This document shows, piece by piece, positions 25,044 through 31,789 of a DNA stretch of 64,000 nt (within the stretch, counting starts at the first letter, position 1; every line of letters begins with the position of its first letter). The DNA comes from Patescibacteria group bacterium (GTDB lineage Bacteria; Patescibacteriota; Patescibacteriia; Patescibacteriales; GWC2-42-12): NCBI GenBank assembly GCA_041662965.1, contig JBAZRI010000003.1:65331-129330 (forward strand), read 5' to 3'. The notes beneath the pieces are model-generated. The model was not told the origin of the DNA, searched no databases, and was given only the letters and a program-made list of their open reading frames with translations. The position numbers and the translations under genes are program-made.

Positions 25044-26447
25044 TTATATCATTAATAAAATTAAATAGTATGGAATAAAATACAAAACCTGGCCGTTCAC
25101 TTCTTTTCTATCCATTTCACTTTTTGTTACAACCACTCCGTATCCCAGCTTTTTCGCCTTTATATAATCTGCCAAAACCGAAAGTTCTTTAGAGCTGATA
25201 TTGTTTGAAAATTTAACTTCAACCGGCAAGTATTTATTATTAATATTAATTATAAAATCTATTTCCTTTTCTCCTTGCCGCCAAAAACTCAAGCTATCTA
25301 TTAATTTATTAGTTTTATATTTTAATTCAAACACGTTATAAACCACATTCTCAATAATTTTTCCAAAAGCCTGCGGAACTTCATCGACGTGATCCGCCCT
25401 GAAATGATTAAGAGCGCAGGTAAAGTTAATGCAGGGAGTATATAATTTTTTTAAAATTCTGCCTTGCTTAATCGGACTTTTGTGATATTTATAAAGTACT
25501 TCCACGACATAACTGTCTTTCAAATATTCCAAATATTTATTTAAAGTTATAAAAGACACTCCGGCCTCTTGGCCGATATTCTTTAGCTCGAAAATTGAGC
25601 CGGCATTATTGATTAATTGGCGCGTAATCAATTTGAATTGGTCGATTTTTTCAATATTAAAAATACGAATGCAGTCCTCCAATACTTTGCCTATCACCGA
25701 TTCGACGATATATTCGTGCTTTCTTTCCGGACTGGCAATTTGCCTGGTTTCGGGAAATTGGCCGACAGTTATATATTCTCTGCTCAAATCGGCAATTTCC
25801 TTGCCGTGGTGGGTGTTATAAATGCTTAATTTTCCGAACTGTTTCGGCAATTCAAACAAATCAAATTTTTCCGCTAAATTAGCTCTACCATAATTAATTT
25901 TTGCGAACTCCCTGAATGACATCGGCGGTAGATAAAAATCAAAAATTCTGCCAGCCAGACTTTCCCGATACTTGCCCCTTAATAAAACGCTTTGCGAGCC
26001 GGTAACAATAAACTTAATTTTTTTACCGGACAAATCATAGTATTTTTTCAAAACTGATTGCCAATCTTCAATATATTGAATCTCGTCCAATAAAATATAG
26101 ACCAGTTCATCTAAGGCGAGGCTCGGCCTAGCTATAATATCTCTAAAATAAACAGACAGAACCTCATCAAGAAATTCCGCCTTTTGTATTTGACTGGCAT
26201 AATCAAATAAAAAATAAAAAATATTTTTTGGTTGAACTTTTTCTTCTATCAGCCGGCCGATTAATTGCTTAACAATCGTACTCTTGCCAACGCGCCGCAA
26301 GCCAACGATATTAAGCATTAAAGGGTGCCCCAAATTGTTAATTATAACCTCATAGAGATCTCTTTTCTCCCATTTTGCCTCTTCCGCTTTATACTGATTA
26401 TTTTCCCACCAGCCATTTTTCAAGGCTAAATCTTGGCTTGTTATCAT
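25044..26447 (-). CDS. AAA+ ATPase of the AAA_14/DUF4143 type
   Basis: 467 aa with Walker A GLRRVGKST and Walker B LLDEIQ, plus a C-terminal region resembling the restriction-endonuclease-like DUF4143. Confidence 0.7.
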   Translation of the reverse strand: MITSQDLALKNGWWENNQYKAEEAKWEKRDLYEVIINNLGHPLMLNIVGLRRVGKSTIVKQLIGRLIEEKVQPKNIFYFLFDYASQIQKAEFLDEVLSVYFRDIIARPSLALDELVYILLDEIQYIEDWQSVLKKYYDLSGKKIKFIVTGSQSVLLRGKYRESLAGRIFDFYLPPMSFREFAKINYGRANLAEKFDLFELPKQFGKLSIYNTHHGKEIADLSREYITVGQFPETRQIASPERKHEYIVESVIGKVLEDCIRIFNIEKIDQFKLITRQLINNAGSIFELKNIGQEAGVSFITLNKYLEYLKDSYVVEVLYKYHKSPIKQGRILKKLYTPCINFTCALNHFRADHVDEVPQAFGKIIENVVYNVFELKYKTNKLIDSLSFWRQGEKEIDFIININNKYLPVEVKFSNNISSKELSVLADYIKAKKLGYGVVVTKSEMDRKEVNGQVLYFIPYYLILLMI

Positions 26448-27309: not shown

Positions 27310-28575
27310 CTAAATACTCAGCGCCGCCTCCACTCTTGATTGTTGAGTATAAGCGAAATCCTCTGGTGAGTGCAGGGAGCGCAGCTTATCCAGCCGCGAA
27401 TCATTCCACATTTCAAGAAGATCATCCGTCATAATGTTGCCTAGCTTTAATAATTCCTCGGCTCGTTGCTTGGCGTCCAAATAACAATCCCCTTTGCTGG
27501 AAATGGCAAAATTATAAATTCCCAAACTCATGGCGCTAAGAGTTCCGGCCAGCGGGTGATACTCATTATTTCCCAAATGATGCAATTCTGATTTCCAAAA
27601 AGGATTTCTCATTTTAACTTTACCTGCGGCCGCCCAGCGCAGACATGTTTGCGCCATATATTTTAAATCCTCGTCGTCAAGCAAAAAATCTTGCATTGTT
27701 TCCTTGGCTCGGCCATATGGAGTAACTGCGTTAAGATAAATGGAGGATGCTCCGTATTCACCGGCAAGCTCAGCAATTTCATCTAGCTCGCCGATATTTT
27801 TTTTATGGACCGCTGCCGCAACGGTAAAAGCCAAGCCGGCATCATTGAGCAGGCGCAGACGGCGCAAAGTTTTTAAAAATGACCCTTTGCCTCGCAGAAA
27901 ATCATGAGTTTCCGCCGTTGCTCCATCTAAACTGGTTTGTATACTGATAAGATGCTTTAAAGATTTAAGACCGGAAGCTTGCTGCTCATCGAGATTGTCA
28001 TAGTCAGTCAACAGAGTTAAGCCAAATTGCATCTCATCGGCGATTTCAAGAATCCGTTGTGTATATGGAAGTGATAATGGCTCTCCGCCGGAGATAACCA
28101 ACATAAGAACGCCGGCTTCTCGCAATCGTTGTATTATTTTCACCCAATCGTCAAAGATCAGCTCTTTTTGTCTGTTGATGCGACTGTTTGCATTCGTGGC
28201 GCAATGACGGCAATATTTCGGGCAATAGTCGGTAATATAAATTGTAACGCTAGATGGCGCCGCTAAGCAATCGGTTCTAAAATTATTTTTACTTTCGTTG
28301 AAAATCAAAATACCTGAAGCCTCATTTCGTCGGTCTATCAATCCTTGTTCATCATAAAAAGTGATAAAATCCTGAATTTCTTGATCGCCGATCATCATTC
28401 CCTTAACAATTAAATTTTTACGCAATTCACTTATAGTCAAAGGGGTATTGAGAAGACGGAGAATCTCAAAAGCATCTTCATTAAATTGCCAATAACGCCC
28501 GCTAAAAGATTGAAAGGCCAAACAGCCAAACCATTCATGACGCAATATAATTCCTTCCTTCAGCGCGTATTTCAT
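27310..28575 (-). CDS. Radical SAM enzyme with an N-terminal peptide-binding-like (RRE/PqqD-like) extension and no SPASM cysteine pattern
   Basis: CX3CX2C motif (CPKYCRHC) about 115 aa into the protein. GGAGGTAAA-ATG start at 28575. The C-terminal third has only two Cys. Confidence 0.8.
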   Translation of the reverse strand: MKYALKEGIILRHEWFGCLAFQSFSGRYWQFNEDAFEILRLLNTPLTISELRKNLIVKGMMIGDQEIQDFITFYDEQGLIDRRNEASGILIFNESKNNFRTDCLAAPSSVTIYITDYCPKYCRHCATNANSRINRQKELIFDDWVKIIQRLREAGVLMLVISGGEPLSLPYTQRILEIADEMQFGLTLLTDYDNLDEQQASGLKSLKHLISIQTSLDGATAETHDFLRGKGSFLKTLRRLRLLNDAGLAFTVAAAVHKKNIGELDEIAELAGEYGASSIYLNAVTPYGRAKETMQDFLLDDEDLKYMAQTCLRWAAAGKVKMRNPFWKSELHHLGNNEYHPLAGTLSAMSLGIYNFAISSKGDCYLDAKQRAEELLKLGNIMTDDLLEMWNDSRLDKLRSLHSPEDFAYTQQSRVEAALSI

Positions 28576-28595
28576 TTTACCTCCAATGGATTGAT

Positions 28596-28630
28596 GGTGA
28601 GGATTTACGCTATAGCCGTAAATCCTCACC
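28596..28630 (-). promoter_or_regulatory. Intercistronic hairpin between the peptide gene and the radical SAM gene
   Basis: Perfect 14-bp stem GGTGAGGATTTACG / CGTAAATCCTCACC with a 7-nt loop and no U-tract. Confidence 0.7.
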
Positions 28631-28650: not shown

Positions 28651-28773
28651 TTATTTGGACCTGATAGCGGGTTGAATTTCCGATGGTGCCGGGGCCGATA
28701 CTTCGCCATGGTTAATCATCACGGCAGGCTGAGGCCGTATAACGACCACTTCCTTTGGATTTAGAGTGCGCAT
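28651..28773 (-). CDS. Candidate RiPP precursor peptide (40 aa): MRTLNPKEVVVIRPQPAVMINHGEVSAPAPSEIQPAIRSK
   Basis: Hand-translated small ORF. AAAGGAGGG lies 7 nt upstream of the ATG and the stop is TAA. It sits immediately upstream of, and on the same strand as, the radical SAM gene. Confidence 0.6.
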   Translation of the reverse strand: MRTLNPKEVVVIRPQPAVMINHGEVSAPAPSEIQPAIRSK

Positions 28774-29032
28774 CCCCATCCCTCCTTTCTTGAGCATAAA
28801 TTGTAAGGCATAACAACATCCTTACGCCCTCACCTAAAATAAAATATTCTCAACTTTTAGTATTTAGTATTAAGACATTTTAATGAGCTTTTTATTATCG
28901 CTAATAACCTTTTAAGCTATAACGATAACACCTTTAAAATAGTCTGAATTGCCGTGATTGTCAAGAATTGTGTCAGAAGAATGCGGGCGTAAAATTATCT
29001 CAACTAAAACGGCTTTTTTTATATAATCATTT

Positions 29033-29515
29033 TTGTTGTATAATTTAACTATGAACACCTATTTAAAAAAATTCATAGACGTTAAATTCAAAAAACCGGG
29101 TAAAGCCCTGGATTTGGGAGCCGGAGATTTTTCCGATATAACAGACTTAAAAAAACTTGGCTGGGAGGGTGAAGGCGTGGATATAAAAACCGGCGTGGAT
29201 TTGGAGAAACCATATCAATCAAAAAATAAGCCTTTTGATTTAGTATATACGAATTATGTTCTGCAAAAATTAAAAAATAAAGAACAGCTTATTAAAACAG
29301 CCTATAGTAATTTAAAAAACAGCGGTTGGTTTTTTATTCATACTTTTGATAAATCAGACCCTAACGGCAAATCCGATATAACCGCTGATTTTTTAGAAAA
29401 ATTATTAAAAAAACAAGGTTTTAAAAATATCGCCGTTAAAATATTTGATTTTTACGACGATGAAGCCGGACATAAGCATTGGCATAAAATTTTAGAGGCC
29501 AAGGCGCGAAAATAA
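29033..29515 (+). CDS. Small class I SAM-dependent methyltransferase
   Basis: Motif I LDLGAGDF. 160 aa. Divergent from the peptide gene. Confidence 0.7.
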   Translation: MLYNLTMNTYLKKFIDVKFKKPGKALDLGAGDFSDITDLKKLGWEGEGVDIKTGVDLEKPYQSKNKPFDLVYTNYVLQKLKNKEQLIKTAYSNLKNSGWFFIHTFDKSDPNGKSDITADFLEKLLKKQGFKNIAVKIFDFYDDEAGHKHWHKILEAKARK

Positions 29516-29576
29516 AAACCCGACAAATTAATGCCGGGTTTTATAATTTTAAACACAAACTTTTATAAAATATCGC

Positions 29577-29867
29577 CTACTCAATATTAAATCTATATCC
29601 ATTAACTTCTTCCAATAATTTCAAAGTGGCGATTACCGACTGATTATCGGAACGCTTTATAATAAATTTTCTGCCGTACTTTTTTACCAGCGGAGTTAAG
29701 AACTCATCGCCCCAGGACGGCGAAAAAGTATTGACCCCGTAAAAATCAGCCTCAACATTTTCTATTTTATCTGCGCTTGGCAAAGAAGGCATAAAAGCGG
29801 CTAAAGCTTCTTTGCCTAATTGCCTTGAAGTTAAAGTTGCGCCGAATTTTTTTAGTTGTATTATCAT
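29577..29867 (-). CDS. STAS-like small protein (DUF4325-like)
   Basis: 96 aa. The pattern (LTSRQLGKE...FYGVNTFSPSWGDEF) resembles the STAS-like DUF4325 family that partners with GHKL ATPases. Confidence 0.55.
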   Translation of the reverse strand: MIIQLKKFGATLTSRQLGKEALAAFMPSLPSADKIENVEADFYGVNTFSPSWGDEFLTPLVKKYGRKFIIKRSDNQSVIATLKLLEEVNGYRFNIE

Positions 29868-29892
29868 ATTATTTATTTTATCAATAACACTT

Positions 29893-30627
29893 TTAAAACT
29901 TAACTAACGCCAAACAACCGTTAACCGGCGTTTTCGCTTCAGCTATGTCTATGCCATGGCTTTTTTTATTTATTCTTAATTCGGCCTGCCCGCTCTTGAA
30001 TAAAAAATCATATTTGTTTTCCGCAACTATTTTTCTAACAAATTTAAGACCGTTGCCCCGGCTTTCCGGCGCCCGCCCGGATATTATTTCGGTAAAAGCC
30101 ATTTTTACCGCGTCTTGATCATCTTTTAAATCTGGCCTGACCTTTCTTAAGGTAGTTAAAACTCCCTGGCCTCGATCGGCAATCGCCAATTGCCGGTTAT
30201 TAAGATTATAGATAAAAAACACCCCCGGAACATCCGGCCAGTTGCCGAGATTGTGGTCATAGGCATTATTGCCGATTTCTCCGACGACGGAAGTAATTAA
30301 AGAAAACCTGTCTTGCAGAATGCCGGATTTAATAAGTTCGGTTTCCAGCCTTGACAGCCGCGCCTGAAAAATTGAACTGTTGGGACAGTAAAAATCGGCC
30401 AGAGGTTCAACGGCTGTATCGCCGCTTGCCCATTTTAAAGCCAGTTTATAAATATCCAAATTAGGCATCAATTCGGCCAATAAATTTCTGTCATAGTATC
30501 TATGCCCGGAGCTTTTAAGGCGAACCGCCGGCAATTTTCCGCTTTTATCCCAGCGGCGAAGCGTATCTAGAGAAACTCCTAATATTTGCGTGGCCTGATT
30601 AATTGTTATTAACTCTTTATTTTGCAT
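29893..30627 (-). CDS. MerR/excisionase-type HTH fused to a GHKL (histidine-kinase-like) ATPase domain
   Basis: N-terminal HTH (ITINQATQILGVSLDTLRRWDKSGKL). C-terminal N-box-like EIGNNAYDH, and G-boxes DRGQGV and GNGLKFV. Confidence 0.65.
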   Translation of the reverse strand: MQNKELITINQATQILGVSLDTLRRWDKSGKLPAVRLKSSGHRYYDRNLLAELMPNLDIYKLALKWASGDTAVEPLADFYCPNSSIFQARLSRLETELIKSGILQDRFSLITSVVGEIGNNAYDHNLGNWPDVPGVFFIYNLNNRQLAIADRGQGVLTTLRKVRPDLKDDQDAVKMAFTEIISGRAPESRGNGLKFVRKIVAENKYDFLFKSGQAELRINKKSHGIDIAEAKTPVNGCLALVKF

Positions 30628-30657
30628 AATAGTATTATACCTTATTTTTTAAAACTA

Positions 30658-30685
30658 TGCAAATACTGATTTTAAATAATTTGCA
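30658..30685. promoter_or_regulatory. Inverted repeat TGCAAAT-N14-ATTTGCA upstream of the HTH-GHKL gene (candidate operator)
   Basis: Perfect 7-bp arms 31-58 bp upstream of the start at 30627. A third TATGCAAAA half-site lies at 30754-30762. Confidence 0.4.
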
Positions 30686-30763
30686 AAAATAATTAAATTT
30701 AGCTAAAATTAAACAAAAATATTAAATAATATGATATTACTAAGATTACAATCTATGCAAAAT

Positions 30764-30795
30764 AGAAAAGGCCTGATTTTACTCAGGCCCTTTTT
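30764..30795 (-). terminator. Intrinsic terminator after the ArgA-like GNAT gene
   Basis: GGCCTGA-loop-TCAGGCC with T-runs on both strands. Confidence 0.6.
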
Positions 30796-30796
30796 G

Positions 30797-31273
30797 TTAA
30801 AAATTTTTGATGAGCGCGATTTCCTTGCAGTCTACTGACCCCGGTACGGCGATATTGCGCGGACAGCGGATACAATCTGTCCACATTTTTTTAGGCAGCA
30901 TCTCCATGCCAACTTTTTTAAAACCGTGCTTTTCAAAAGTATTAGGGCGTAAAGTTAAAGTGTAAACTATTTTTATGCCCAGATCCTCTATCCTCTCCAT
31001 CACTGCCGAAATTAGCATAGAGCCTATGCCGTGATTAAAATATTTTTTATCCACAACCCAAGAAACTATTTCCGCTTTTTCATCTTCACCGATTTTAAAA
31101 GCCACGCTGCCGGCAAATTGGCCATCATAGTCAGCCGCCAAAAAATTCGGCAACATGACCGTTAGCTCGGCTCTGCTTTTTGGCAGAAGCAACTCTTCCT
31201 TAGCATAGAGCTTGATTAAATCGTGAATTTTTACTATATCACTAACTACCGCTTGTCTAATTATTATTTTCAT
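30797..31273 (-). CDS. GNAT acetyltransferase of the short ArgA-like (COG1246, N-acetylglutamate synthase-like) type
   Basis: 158 aa. The N-terminal IRQAVVSDIVKIHDLIKLYAKEELLLPKS pattern, the GNAT core, and the C-terminal KMWTDCIRCP...C motif are typical of this subfamily. AGGAG RBS. Confidence 0.65.
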   Translation of the reverse strand: MKIIIRQAVVSDIVKIHDLIKLYAKEELLLPKSRAELTVMLPNFLAADYDGQFAGSVAFKIGEDEKAEIVSWVVDKKYFNHGIGSMLISAVMERIEDLGIKIVYTLTLRPNTFEKHGFKKVGMEMLPKKMWTDCIRCPRNIAVPGSVDCKEIALIKNF

Positions 31274-31513: not shown

Positions 31514-31789
31514 AAAAAACCTCGTCTTCAAATAGAAAAAATTCTATTCAAGGACGAGGTTATTTAGTCTCGTGGTACCACCCTGATTCCCCAATTTTAT
31601 TATCGGAGCGCTCATTAAGCTATTTGCCCGCGGTAGCAAACCGCTCCGGCCTACTTAGGTTCAGCCGGCAATCTCCGGAAGCGCGTTCAGCATTACTGGC
31701 CTGCCGGGCTCGCACCATTACCCGGCTCGCTTAGAGGCTTAAATATTGCTTACTATTTTCCTTCAATGATTAGGTTGATTTTTAAGATC
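31514..31789 (-). promoter_or_regulatory. T-box riboswitch leader (specifier most likely CGC, Arg) with a terminator/antiterminator
   Basis: T-box sequence AATCAGGGTGGTACCACGAG (31569-31588). Stem I AG-bulge AGCGA and distal loop GGTGCGA. AGTA S-turn and GAA-CGC-G specifier loop. Terminator CCTCGTCC...GACGAGG plus T6 (31514-31559). Confidence 0.8.

What the first reader, a model, noticed from the sequence alone, without database searches (positions are those of the whole stretch)
29577..30685. Two-gene module: MerR-type HTH fused to a GHKL ATPase, plus a STAS-like partner, with a candidate palindromic operator
Seen:
- A 244-aa protein has an N-terminal MerR/excisionase-type HTH. Its C-terminal half carries GHKL (Bergerat-fold) ATPase boxes (EIGNNAYDH; DRGQGV; GNGLKFV).
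- 25 nt downstream is a 96-aa protein whose pattern resembles STAS-like DUF4325.
- Upstream of the pair is a perfect inverted repeat, TGCAAAT-N14-ATTTGCA (30658-30685), plus a third half-site (30754-30762).

From established knowledge, a GHKL kinase with a STAS protein is the SpoIIAB/SpoIIAA-type partner-switching logic. Here the kinase-like protein is itself fused to a DNA-binding domain, and no sigma factor is nearby. This suggests a self-contained partner-switching transcription switch, or a conflict/defence-type sensor module.

It sits in the accessory stretch between a methyltransferase and the T-box/GNAT locus.
Basis: partly seen in the sequence, partly recalled or inferred. Interest (0 to 1): 0.55.

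Follow-up and report, generated by a model that had tools for sequence, protein, structure and literature searches.

The report
Self-regulating kinase-like DNA switch in Patescibacteria

Summary
Both genes and their motifs are present as described. Protein A (244 aa) has a MerR/BldC-like HTH and a C-terminal Bergerat-fold domain. That domain is homologous to the GHKL kinase domain of a CapK-like protein (hhalign 96%, E 2e-9). Protein B (96 aa) is a DUF4325/STAS-like protein with an invariant Ser51 at the start of helix α2.

The pair is a conserved, self-contained operon. All 77 orthologous loci with room downstream carry B next to A. At least 505 species genomes, nearly all titled as Patescibacteria, encode A. 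No third gene is conserved, and the module is almost absent from viral contigs.

The proposed palindromic operator is not supported: it is chance-level and present in 1 of 78 loci. The real cis-element is an oriented direct repeat, TG[C/T]ATAGNTT. It occurs in 2-5 copies, usually 21 bp apart, over the core promoter, and is about 675-fold enriched there. Motif position 3 covaries with HTH residue 21 (Asp with C, 38/38; Gln/Met with T, 25/25; Asn with a G-type variant). This argues that A binds its own promoter.

The closest known systems are CapK/CapS and VapK/VapS (EMBO J 2026). This module lacks CapK's internal STAS domain, CapS's wHTH and any effector operon. I rate it a new variant of a known kind. 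Phosphorylation of B and the input signal remain inferred.

The parts
30766..30793 (-). Intrinsic terminator of the upstream GNAT gene. It isolates the A-B operon as its own transcription unit.
   Evidence: 11-bp stem with 5 GC pairs, followed by a T-run. The sequence is visible.
30750..30760 (-). Distal operator copy, TTGCATAGATT.
   Evidence: one of only two TGYATAGNTT matches in the 64 kb window; direct repeat D1, 98 nt from the proximal copy. The same distal/proximal layout occurs in the closest orthologues L001 and L002.
30679..30685 (-). It is probably not functional.
   Evidence: not conserved in L001 or L002, nor in any of the 77 other loci. Inverted repeats of this size are expected by chance here.
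30652..30662 (-). Proximal operator copy, TTGCATAGTTT. It overlaps the -35-like hexamer TTGCAT (30657-30662).
   Evidence: In Asp21-type orthologues, copies start at -22 and -43 relative to the -10 hexamer in a stereotyped way.
30634..30639 (-). -10 hexamer TATAAT. It lies 17 nt after TTGCAT and 6 nt before the ATG, so a leaderless or near-leaderless mRNA is likely.
   Evidence: (promoter-like site 30663..30634, 10 of 12 matches), and (a 6-9 nt gap between the -10 and the ATG in at least 22 of 74 loci).
29893..30627 (-). Gene A: HTH fused to a GHKL kinase-like domain, 244 aa.
30469..30612 (-). MerR/BldC-like winged HTH (aa 6-53). The recognition helix reads S19-L-D21-T-L-R-R-W26. The Asp21 codon GAT lies at 30565-30567.
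   Evidence: Pfam. (BldC, BrlR and BmrR are the nearest matches). (residue 21 covaries with motif position 3).
29896..30378 (-). GHKL (Bergerat-fold) domain, aa about 84-244. N-box E117/N121/D124/H125; G1 D151-R-G-Q-G155; G2 R190-G-N-G-L194.
   Evidence: invariant columns. (AF2 model, pLDDT 81). (Foldseek matches to Hsp90, TRAP1, GyrB and HtpG, probability up to 0.99). (hhalign to a CapK-like protein, probability 96.2%, E 2.4e-9). (sub-threshold HATPase_c and HATPase_c_2 hits in distant family members).
29577..29867 (-). Gene B: 96-aa STAS-like (DUF4325) protein. Invariant motif [S/T]49-P-S51-W-G-D-E-F at the start of helix α2. The Ser51 codon lies at 29715-29717.
   Evidence: AF2 pLDDT 92; best structural matches are RsbS and SLC26 STAS domains.
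29515..29542 (-). Intrinsic terminator after B. It overlaps the end of the convergent methyltransferase gene.

Best explanation
A and B form a self-contained, autoregulated two-protein switch, conserved across the Patescibacteria.

Step 1 (strongly supported by comparative evidence). A binds, through its MerR/BldC-like winged HTH, to oriented direct repeats TG[C/T]ATAGNTT. These are spaced mostly two helical turns (21 bp) apart and cover the core promoter of its own operon. Residue 21, in the first turn of the recognition helix, reads motif position 3.

Step 2 (inferred from site positions). Binding represses the operon. In the window, the proximal site is the -35 element itself. In Gln21-type relatives, the sites cover the spacer, the -10 and the transcription start.

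Step 3 (inferred by homology to CapK/CapS, VapK/VapS and SpoIIAB/SpoIIAA). The GHKL domain of A binds ATP and docks B. It phosphorylates B on the invariant Ser51 at the N-terminus of STAS helix α2.

Step 4 (speculative). Occupancy of the kinase domain by unphosphorylated B changes A's oligomeric state or the freedom of its HTH, and hence its DNA binding. An input would then be converted into transcription of the operon and perhaps a few unlinked promoters. Candidate inputs are the ATP/ADP ratio, an unlinked phosphatase, or a ligand of the invariant W66/F79-Y80-C81 linker.

In this reading, DNA takes the place that the sigma factor holds in classical partner switching.
For: Module:
- 77 of 77 orthologous loci with room downstream have B 3-57 nt after A, with one gap of 229 nt.
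- No third gene is conserved within +/-4 kb.
- The operon has its own promoter and flanking terminators.
- At least 505 species genomes encode A; nearly all of the 80 loci kept are titled as Patescibacteria lineages. The A search returned 5361 clusters.
- HTH-less homologues of A are also followed by a DUF4325 gene.

Operator:
- 139 forward versus 2 reverse motif copies occur in 78 x 150 nt upstream regions. The remaining 597 kb holds 21 copies, about 675-fold enrichment.
- Copy spacing peaks at 21 bp (43 cases) and 20 bp (10 cases), with further cases near 10, 31 and 42-43 bp.
- Copies sit at stereotyped positions relative to the -10 hexamer.
- The only two matches in the 64 kb window are upstream of A.

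Covariation:
- Asp21 goes with TGCATAG in 38/38 loci. Gln/Met21 goes with TGTATAG in 25/25. Mutual information is 0.97 bit, against at most 0.59 for any other column.
- Asn21 goes with TG(G/A/T)GTAG-type repeats in L003, L058, L065 and L107; L075, also Asn21, has a looser GTTGTAG repeat.
- About 12 state changes occur on a tree built from residues 62-244.
- In an independent set chosen by DNA pattern alone, 44/44 downstream A proteins have Asp21.

HTH type:
- The nearest solved and curated relatives include BldC. BldC binds direct repeats head-to-tail (PMC5859096).

Kinase and substrate:
- The N, G1 and G2 boxes are invariant and the fold is GHKL.
- hhalign gives 96.2% probability, E 2.4e-9, to a CapK-like protein that sits beside a STAS-wHTH-like gene and a ThiF/DUF6527 operon.
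- B has a STAS-like fold with invariant Ser51 at the start of α2. This matches the position of CapS Ser54, VapS Ser48 and SpoIIAA Ser58 (PMC13373217).
Against: - No experiment supports any step.
- Pfam HATPase models do not reach threshold on A.
- hhalign of A against SpoIIAB is not significant (E 0.23). B against SpoIIAA or against the CapS-like protein is also not significant.
- Foldseek E-values for B are weak (0.085, TM about 0.6).
- Foldseek ranks dimerising ATPases (Hsp90, GyrB) above kinases for A.
- A lacks the STAS domain that forms CapK's ssDNA-sensing groove, so the input signal cannot be transferred from CapK.
- In CapK, deleting the HTH had no phenotype.
- Covariation could partly reflect co-inheritance or recombination of the adjacent promoter and the 5' end of the gene. 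Even so, it implies functional matching.
- Sites at -34 and -55 in Asp21-type promoters are also compatible with activation.
- No phosphatase was identified.
Confidence: 0.55

Rival explanations
1. A is the autoregulator and the kinase, as in the best explanation. However, B is the real output. Like VapS with VapC, unphosphorylated B sequesters an unlinked protein target, and phosphorylation releases it. B does not feed back on A's DNA binding.
For: - VapS, a STAS protein with a conserved Ser, works this way (PMC13373217).
- B-only genes sit directly behind TGCATAG repeat pairs without an adjacent A (L081 and L104). This suggests B dosage matters on its own.
- B is very highly conserved (mean column identity 68%). 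That would be expected if it has more than one binding partner.
Against: - No conserved third gene lies within +/-4 kb in 80 loci.
- B is only 96 aa and lacks the C-terminal extension that VapS uses to block VapC.
Confidence: 0.2
2. The GHKL domain is not a protein kinase. It is an ATP-driven dimerisation or clamp module of the MutL/MORC/Hsp90 type. It brings HTH domains together on the 21-bp-spaced repeats. B is a non-phosphorylated cofactor or inhibitor of that ATPase cycle.
For: - Foldseek's best matches are Hsp90/TRAP1, GyrB and HtpG.
- The N-box reads E-x-x-N-N-S/A-x-D-H. It has the Asp typical of GyrB, Hsp90 and MutL (comparison from general knowledge).
- The 21-bp spacing fits paired HTH domains lying on one face of the helix.
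Against: - The domain is only about 160 aa and has no transducer domain.
- The only significant profile match is to a CapK-like kinase domain. That protein itself scores best on HATPase_c_2, the SpoIIAB-type model.
- The partner has an invariant Ser exactly at the STAS phospho-acceptor position.
Confidence: 0.15
3. The pair is a conflict or defence sensor of the CapKS/VapKSC type. It would control an immune effector or toxin, as the first reader alternatively suggested.
For: - The GHKL domain is homologous to that of a CapK-like protein.
- DUF4325 genes are coupled to PIN.4 VapC toxins elsewhere (PMC5499597).
- One contig (L107) has four TTTGCATAGTTT copies at a 20-bp period upstream of a type I R-M hsdM-like gene.
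- In L081, a Panacea-like gene follows a B-only gene (domain assignment is my reading of the sequence).
Against: - PADLOC matches only the HTH, via mad1.
- Neighbours vary and are mostly housekeeping genes; no toxin or effector is conserved.
- In the window, the neighbours are small-molecule methyltransferases, GNATs, a radical SAM enzyme and ProRS.
- One locus was found in 2.9 million viral contigs. Plasmid matches to A are distant and partial, none covering 80% of it.
- The gene is conserved across the phylum rather than patchily distributed.
Confidence: 0.07
4. The TGYATAGNTT repeats are a promoter or UP-like element read by RNA polymerase, not by A. The HTH of A would have other targets, or none.
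For: - In Asp21-type loci, the proximal copy supplies the -35-like TTGCAT hexamer at a 17-nt spacing.
Against: - The motif is essentially absent from 597 kb of flanking DNA and from the rest of the 64 kb window. These regions contain many other promoters.
- Copies also lie in the spacer, over the -10, and downstream of the start site in Gln21-type loci.
- The motif changes in step with residue 21 of A.
Confidence: 0.03

Closest known systems
CapK + CapS (Chambers et al., EMBO J 2026, PMC13373217)
   Same: - A two-gene, kinase-first operon: an N-terminal HTH fused to a GHKL kinase, followed by a STAS-family substrate.
- The substrate has an absolutely conserved Ser at the start of STAS helix α2.
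- The output is transcriptional, with autoregulation.
- A's GHKL domain is profile-homologous to that of a CapK-like protein.
   Different: - A has no STAS domain between the HTH and the GHKL domain. CapK is HTH-STAS-GHKL, and its ssDNA-sensing groove needs that STAS domain.
- B has no wHTH. In CapKS, CapS is the DNA-binding repressor and binds palindromes, and the CapK HTH has no known role.
- Here the operator covaries with the kinase protein's own HTH and consists of direct repeats.
- No downstream immune operon is present.
- This module is found mainly in Patescibacteria, whereas CapKS was described upstream of immune operons in diverse other bacteria.
- No significant sequence match was found between B and a CapS-like STAS domain.
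VapK-VapS-VapC (same paper); PIN.4 VapC genes coupled to DUF4325 (PMC5499597)
   Same: - A GHKL kinase paired with a small stand-alone STAS-type protein carrying a conserved Ser.
- B belongs to DUF4325. DUF4325 genes are reported as transcriptionally coupled to PIN.4 VapC.
   Different: - No PIN/VapC toxin is present.
- B lacks the C-terminal inhibitory helix of VapS.
- VapK has a STAS domain and no HTH.
- That VapS itself is a DUF4325 protein is my inference and was not tested.
SpoIIAB/SpoIIAA and RsbW/RsbV partner switching
   Same: - A minimal GHKL Ser-kinase of about 150 aa plus a single-domain STAS antagonist of about 100 aa. The phospho-acceptor Ser sits at the N-terminus of α2.
- The N-box and G1 box of A align in register with SpoIIAB.
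   Different: - There is no sigma-factor target; a DNA-binding domain is fused to the kinase instead.
- Sequence-level similarity is not significant.
- No PP2C phosphatase was identified.
BldC (Streptomyces; PMC5859096) and Xis-type MerR-like wHTH proteins
   Same: - A MerR-like wHTH without the MerR coiled-coil.
- The cis-elements are oriented direct repeats of variable copy number on one face of the helix.
- BldC Arg30 aligns with A's invariant Arg25.
   Different: - BldC is a 68-aa stand-alone protein. Its repeats (AATTXXXX(C)) are contiguous, two per 22 bp, not 21 bp apart.
- A scores 19.9 bits against the BldC model's 77-bit cutoff, so it is not a BldC family member.
Classical MerR regulators (MerR, CueR, BmrR)
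   Same: The HTH domain passes the Pfam MerR and MerR_1 thresholds.
   Different: - There is no dimerisation coiled-coil or effector domain.
- The operator is not a palindrome within a 19-bp spacer.

Membership tests
GHKL / Bergerat-fold ATPase superfamily | N-box (E-x-x-x-N-x-x-D/H), with the Mg-binding Asn | tested here: met
   G116 E117 G119 N121 D124 H125 are invariant in 37 sequences.
GHKL / Bergerat-fold ATPase superfamily | G1 box (DxGxG) and a Gly-rich G2 box | tested here: met
   D151 R152 G153 G155 and R190 G191 N192 G193 L194 are invariant.
GHKL / Bergerat-fold ATPase superfamily | α/β sandwich Bergerat fold | tested here: met
GHKL / Bergerat-fold ATPase superfamily | Match to the Pfam HATPase_c or HATPase_c_2 models above the gathering score | tested here: not met
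   A has no hit at E<=1. Distant family members reach only 19-24 bits against cutoffs of 26-27.
CapK/CapS regulators | Kinase domain homologous to the CapK GHKL domain | tested here: met
   hhalign of A1 against a Cytobacillus plasmid protein (290 aa) gives probability 96.2%, E 2.4e-9, over 110 columns. That protein is followed by a 192-aa protein with a C-terminal wHTH and by ThiF and DUF6527 genes. Calling it CapK is inferred from architecture and the Bub-like context.
CapK/CapS regulators | CapK architecture HTH-STAS-GHKL | tested here: not met
   Only about 30-50 residues (one short helix, 59-68) separate the HTH from the first GHKL helix. There is no room for a STAS domain.
CapK/CapS regulators | CapS architecture STAS plus a C-terminal wHTH; CapS is the DNA binder | tested here: not met
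   B is 96 aa with a single STAS-like domain. The operator covaries with A's HTH.
CapK/CapS regulators | Conserved Ser on STAS helix α2 as the phospho-acceptor | tested here: met
   P50, S51 and W52 are invariant in A2. S51 remains invariant in the broader alignment A3, and α2 starts at residue 50 in the AF2 model. Phosphorylation itself is not testable here.
CapK/CapS regulators | Located immediately upstream of an immune or stress operon that it regulates | tested here: not met
   A terminator follows B. No downstream gene is conserved in 80 loci.
SpoIIAB/SpoIIAA-type partner switching | STAS-fold antagonist | tested here: met
   The best Foldseek matches for B are RsbS, stressosome STAS and SLC26 STAS, with TM 0.6 and probability 0.94-0.96, but E is only 0.085. 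Orthologues match DUF4325, a 'STAS-like' Pfam family.
SpoIIAB/SpoIIAA-type partner switching | Sigma factor as the sequestered target | tested here: not met
   No sigma factor gene is conserved nearby, and none lies in the window neighbourhood.
SpoIIAB/SpoIIAA-type partner switching | Sequence homology to SpoIIAB and SpoIIAA | tested here: inconclusive
The N-box and G1 box are in register.
SpoIIAB/SpoIIAA-type partner switching | Cognate PP2C phosphatase | not tested
   None is adjacent. A genome-wide search was not possible with these tools.
DUF4325 (PF14213) | Pfam model match above the gathering score | tested here: inconclusive
   B itself scores 20.5 against a cutoff of 23. Most orthologues carry PF14213. 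Partners of HTH-less homologues score 43.4 and 35.7 bits.
Classical MerR family | MerR-type HTH | tested here: met
   PF00376 scores 40.2 bits (cutoff 28.2) and PF13411 scores 37.1 bits (cutoff 21.6).
Classical MerR family | Dimeric binding to a palindrome in a long promoter spacer | tested here: not met
   The repeats are direct and oriented, 139 forward versus 2 reverse. The palindrome is not conserved. The spacer is 17 nt.
BldC family | NCBIfam HTH_BldC model above cutoff; small stand-alone protein | tested here: not met
   A scores 19.9 bits against a cutoff of 77, and it is a 244-aa fusion protein.

The most novel reading that the evidence does not exclude
The pair may be a phylum-wide regulatory switch of Patescibacteria in which classical partner switching has been rewired. 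The anti-sigma-type kinase carries its own BldC-like DNA-binding domain, so the STAS partner would compete with, or gate, DNA binding instead of sigma binding. Paralogous pairs would use a simple one-residue/one-base code (Asp21 with C, Gln/Met21 with T, Asn21 with G-type repeats) to keep their operators separate. They would also control a small unlinked regulon, for example a type I R-M hsdM promoter and stand-alone B genes. Given the homology to CapK, the input could be DNA damage or energy state. That would give these minimal genomes a stress response built from two small proteins.
Probability: 0.3. Interest if true: 0.75.

Novelty: new variant of a known kind. Interest (0 to 1): 0.6.

Why it matters
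Patescibacteria (CPR) have very small genomes and few recognisable regulators, and almost none of their transcription factors has a known binding site. This analysis yields three things from sequence alone:
- a regulator found in at least 505 species genomes, nearly all titled as Patescibacteria;
- its operator;
- a residue-to-base specificity rule.

All three can be tested with EMSA and a single point mutant.

The work also extends the just-described CapK/CapS and VapK/VapS kinase-STAS paradigm to a stripped-down form. In this form the kinase protein is the DNA binder and no effector operon is attached. That suggests GHKL-STAS pairs are a general, modular signalling device well beyond sigma-factor control and phage defence.

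Tried and rejected
- **Palindromic operator.** Tested by shuffling and by conservation, and rejected.
- **Pfam, NCBIfam and PADLOC on A's C-terminal half.** No family was assigned. The PADLOC mad1 hit covers only the HTH.
- **Sequence and profile searches of the PDB.** Only HTH matches were found.
- Not significant. B against the CapS-like protein was also not significant.
- **Search for a conserved third gene** (phosphatase, sigma factor, toxin) within +/-4 kb of 80 loci. None was found.
- **Regulon search in the window.** Only the two self sites match. One-mismatch hits are at chance level, 9 against 7.6 expected.
- **Regulon search in metagenomes using a two-copy pattern.** Of 120 loci, 45 are self-promoters and 3 are B-only. 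A few are suggestive: hsdM in L107, an array 256 nt upstream of rpoB in L189, and an HNH/NUMOD-like gene in L195. The rest are coding repeats or tandem repeats. No coherent regulon emerged.
- **Phage or plasmid origin.** One viral contig was found. There is no plasmid match for B, and matches for A are only distant.
- **Inverted partial motif copy over the A start codon (30618-30628, + strand).** Judged to be a coding coincidence, because the N-terminus is not conserved.
Full report
**1. What is in the sequence**

On the minus strand there are two ORFs. A lies at 29893..30627 (244 aa) and B at 29577..29867 (96 aa), with 25 nt between them.

The pair is bracketed by intrinsic-terminator-like hairpins. 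One, at 30793..30766, ends the upstream GNAT gene. The other, at 29542..29515, follows B.

A sigma-70-like promoter sits directly upstream of A. TTGCAT (30662-30657) is followed by a 17-nt spacer and TATAAT (30639-30634). The tool's own call is TTTGCA-18-TATAAT at 30663..30634. Only 6 nt separate the -10 hexamer from the ATG, so the mRNA is probably leaderless or nearly so. The same 6-9 nt gap is seen in at least 22 of 74 orthologous loci.

The operon is therefore a self-contained transcription unit.

**2. Protein A**

Residues 6-53 pass the Pfam thresholds for MerR, MerR_1 and HTH_17. The nearest solved and curated relatives of this HTH include BldC (6amk, 6ama; NCBIfam HTH_BldC, sub-threshold), BrlR and BmrR.

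No library assigns the C-terminal half. However, a 37-sequence alignment shows invariant GHKL boxes:
- N-box: G116-E-I-G-N-N121-x-x-D-H125
- G1 box: D151-R-G-x-G155
- G2 box: R190-G-N-G-L194

An AlphaFold2 model (pLDDT 81) has the expected helix/sheet order. All 50 listed Foldseek matches in the PDB are GHKL proteins: Hsp90/TRAP1, GyrB and HtpG, with probability up to 0.99 and E down to 1.5e-4.

An exhaustive phmmer search with residues 75-244 found only 336 clusters at 50% identity, so this is a compact, distinct family. A few divergent members touch HATPase_c or HATPase_c_2 below threshold.

tblastn against plasmids found a Cytobacillus 'ATP-binding protein' of 290 aa. It is followed by a 192-aa protein with a C-terminal wHTH and by ThiF and DUF6527 genes. 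This is the architecture and Bub-type context described for CapK/CapS (PMC13373217).

hhalign of the A family against that protein gives 96.2% probability and E 2.4e-9 over the kinase domain. The N, G1 and G2 boxes align. That protein's best Pfam match is HATPase_c_2, the SpoIIAB-type model.

A is therefore an HTH fused to a CapK-related GHKL domain. It lacks the STAS domain that CapK has between the two.

**3. Protein B**

B scores just under the DUF4325 cutoff, but most of its orthologues carry PF14213.

Its AF2 model (pLDDT 92) best matches RsbS, stressosome STAS and SLC26 STAS domains. TM is about 0.6 and probability 0.94-0.96, but E-values are weak.

The motif [S/T]49-P-S51-W-G-D-E-F is conserved, and Ser51 is invariant. 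This holds even in partners of HTH-less A homologues. Ser51 sits at the start of helix α2. This is the position of the phospho-acceptor in SpoIIAA (Ser58), CapS (Ser54) and VapS (Ser48).

**4. Conservation of the module**

Nearly all of the 80 loci kept are titled as Patescibacteria lineages: Parcubacteria groups, Microgenomates such as Roizman- and Levybacteria, Peregrinibacteria, Doudnabacteria and others. A few MAGs are labelled otherwise.

In 77 of 77 loci with room downstream, a B homologue follows A after 3-57 nt, with one gap of 229 nt. Clustering all ORFs within +/-4 kb showed no third conserved gene. The next most frequent family occurs in only 5 of 80 loci.

Only one of 2.9 million viral contigs carries the module. 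PADLOC recognises only the HTH. Homologues of about 195 aa that lack the HTH are also followed by a DUF4325 gene. The GHKL-DUF4325 pair is therefore the ancient core, and the HTH is an addition.

**5. The operator**

Such repeats are expected by chance in this AT-rich spacer (1.5 per shuffle). It occurs in only 1 of 78 orthologous upstream regions.

What is conserved is an oriented direct repeat, T-G-[C/T]-A-T-A-G-N-T-T:
- 139 forward and 2 reverse copies occur in 78 x 150 nt of upstream sequence.
- Only 21 copies occur in the other 597 kb of the same loci, about 675-fold enrichment.
- 54 of 78 loci have at least 2 copies.
- Start-to-start spacing peaks sharply at 21 bp (43 cases) and 20 bp (10 cases). 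Further cases lie near 10, 31 and 42-43 bp, which places copies on one face of the helix.

In the window, the only two matches in 64 kb are TTGCATAGTTT (30652-30662) and TTGCATAGATT (30750-30760). The first overlaps the -35 element and forms the right arm of the 'palindrome'.

Positions relative to the -10 hexamer are stereotyped:
- Loci with TGCATAG repeats: copies start at -43 and -22.
- Loci with TGTATAG repeats: copies start at -32, -11, +11 and +32. They cover the spacer, the -10 and the start site.

**6. Evidence that A reads this operator**

Residue 21 lies in the first turn of the recognition helix (S19-x-D21-T-L-R-R-W26). It covaries with motif position 3:
- Asp21 with TGCATAG: 38/38 loci.
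- Gln21 or Met21 with TGTATAG: 25/25 loci.

Mutual information is 0.97 bit, against at most 0.59 for any other column.

Asn21 proteins have TG(G/A/T)GTAG-type repeats in L003, L058, L065 and L107. L075, also Asn21, has a looser GTTGTAG repeat.

On a tree built from residues 62-244, the residue changes state about 12 times, and in the loci scored the motif matches the residue. Examples are Asp-type L064, L055 and L034 nested among Gln-type neighbours.

As an independent test, I scanned metagenomes for the DNA pattern TGCATAGNTT-N10-12-TGCATAGNTT alone. Of 120 loci, 45 have an A gene immediately downstream. All 44 whose alignment covers position 21 have Asp. Asp contacting cytosine and Gln contacting the adenine of a T:A pair are chemically plausible contacts; this is general knowledge, not tested here.

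The invariant Arg25 aligns with BldC Arg30, which is BldC's base-contacting residue. BldC is the precedent for a MerR-like wHTH that binds direct repeats head-to-tail (PMC5859096).

One caveat applies. The promoter and the 5' end of the gene are adjacent, so recombination can move them together. That still implies the two are functionally matched.

**7. Mechanism**

- *Shown by comparative evidence:* A recognises repeats that cover its own core promoter.
- *Inferred from site positions:* the result is negative autoregulation.
- *Inferred from homology to CapK/CapS, VapK/VapS and SpoIIAB/SpoIIAA:* A binds ATP and phosphorylates B on Ser51.
- *Speculative:* B gates A's DNA binding, with DNA replacing the sigma factor of classical partner switching. 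Alternatively, B controls an unlinked protein.

The input signal is unknown. CapK senses ssDNA in a groove formed partly by its STAS domain, and A lacks that domain. A does have an invariant aromatic/Cys cluster (W66, F79, Y80, C81, F87) in the linker.

**8. Possible targets beyond the operon**

No coherent regulon emerged, but there are hints:
- L107 has four TTTGCATAGTTT copies at an exact 20-bp period upstream of a type I R-M hsdM-like gene. The A-B operon on the same contig is Asn21-type with its own GTAG-type repeats. This suggests paralogues with separate operator codes.
- B-only genes sit directly behind TGCATAG pairs in L081 and L104.
- Most other pattern matches are coding or tandem repeats.

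**9. Comparison with known systems, and novelty**

The closest known systems are CapK/CapS and VapK/VapS/VapC (Chambers et al. 2026).

Shared features:
- a homologous GHKL domain;
- a STAS-type partner with a conserved α2 Ser;
- kinase-first gene order;
- a transcriptional, autoregulated output.

Defining features not met:
- no internal STAS domain in A;
- no wHTH in B;
- no adjacent effector operon;
- direct repeats rather than palindromes;
- the kinase protein, not the STAS protein, is the DNA binder.

I found no description of this Patescibacteria module in the searchable literature. I therefore rate it a new variant of a known kind, not a member of CapKS.

**10. Verdict**

The partner-switch-like reading is the best supported. 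The defence reading is weak.

Interest is moderate to high. The module is a widely conserved regulator of a poorly understood phylum, with a predicted operator and a one-residue specificity code that can be tested directly.

Noticed in passing
window 31547-31775 (-), with the GNAT gene at 30797-31273 (-): A full-length T-box leader (RF00230, 115 bits) lies upstream of a GNAT acetyltransferase rather than an aminoacyl-tRNA synthetase or transporter gene. About 270 nt separate it from the GNAT start codon. This is an unusual T-box cargo.
   Followed up: no
window 27310-28629 (-) and 28651-28797 (-): A radical SAM/SPASM enzyme has a 48-aa ORF immediately upstream. This may be a RiPP maturase with its precursor peptide.
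   Followed up: no
L107 739-808 (-), upstream of an hsdM-like ORF: Four TTTGCATAGTTT copies at an exact 20-bp period lie about 70 nt upstream of a type I R-M methylase-like gene. The A-B operon on the same contig (L107 5807-6846) has Asn21 and GTAGATT-type repeats. This suggests paralogous regulators with distinct operator codes, and non-self targets.
   Followed up: partly
L081 8050-8322; L104 7014-7280: Stand-alone B (DUF4325) genes lie directly behind a pair of TGCATAG repeats, with no A gene on the 9 kb contig. In L081, a gene that looks Panacea/DUF4065-like (my reading) and another small ORF follow.
   Followed up: partly
window 30627-30639, and 74 orthologous loci: The -10 hexamer ends only 6-9 nt before the start codon in the window and in at least 22 of 74 loci, with no Shine-Dalgarno sequence. 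This implies leaderless translation of the regulator in many Patescibacteria.
   Followed up: partly
L204 2378-3238; L205 162-1009: Homologues of A's GHKL domain that lack the HTH (192-199 aa) are also followed by a DUF4325 gene. In L204 the neighbours (photolyase, cytochrome b5) suggest a non-Patescibacteria genome, although I did not check the taxonomy. One cluster carries an ArsR-type HTH instead (P0266).
   Followed up: partly
L189 95-125: A pair of TTGCATAGATT repeats lies 256 nt upstream of an rpoB-like gene. The significance is unknown.
   Followed up: no
window 25044-26447 (-): An AAA_14 + DUF4143 ATPase gene lies nearby. A similar AAA-type ATPase family recurs near the module in 4 of 80 loci. 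This is probably a coincidence.
   Followed up: no
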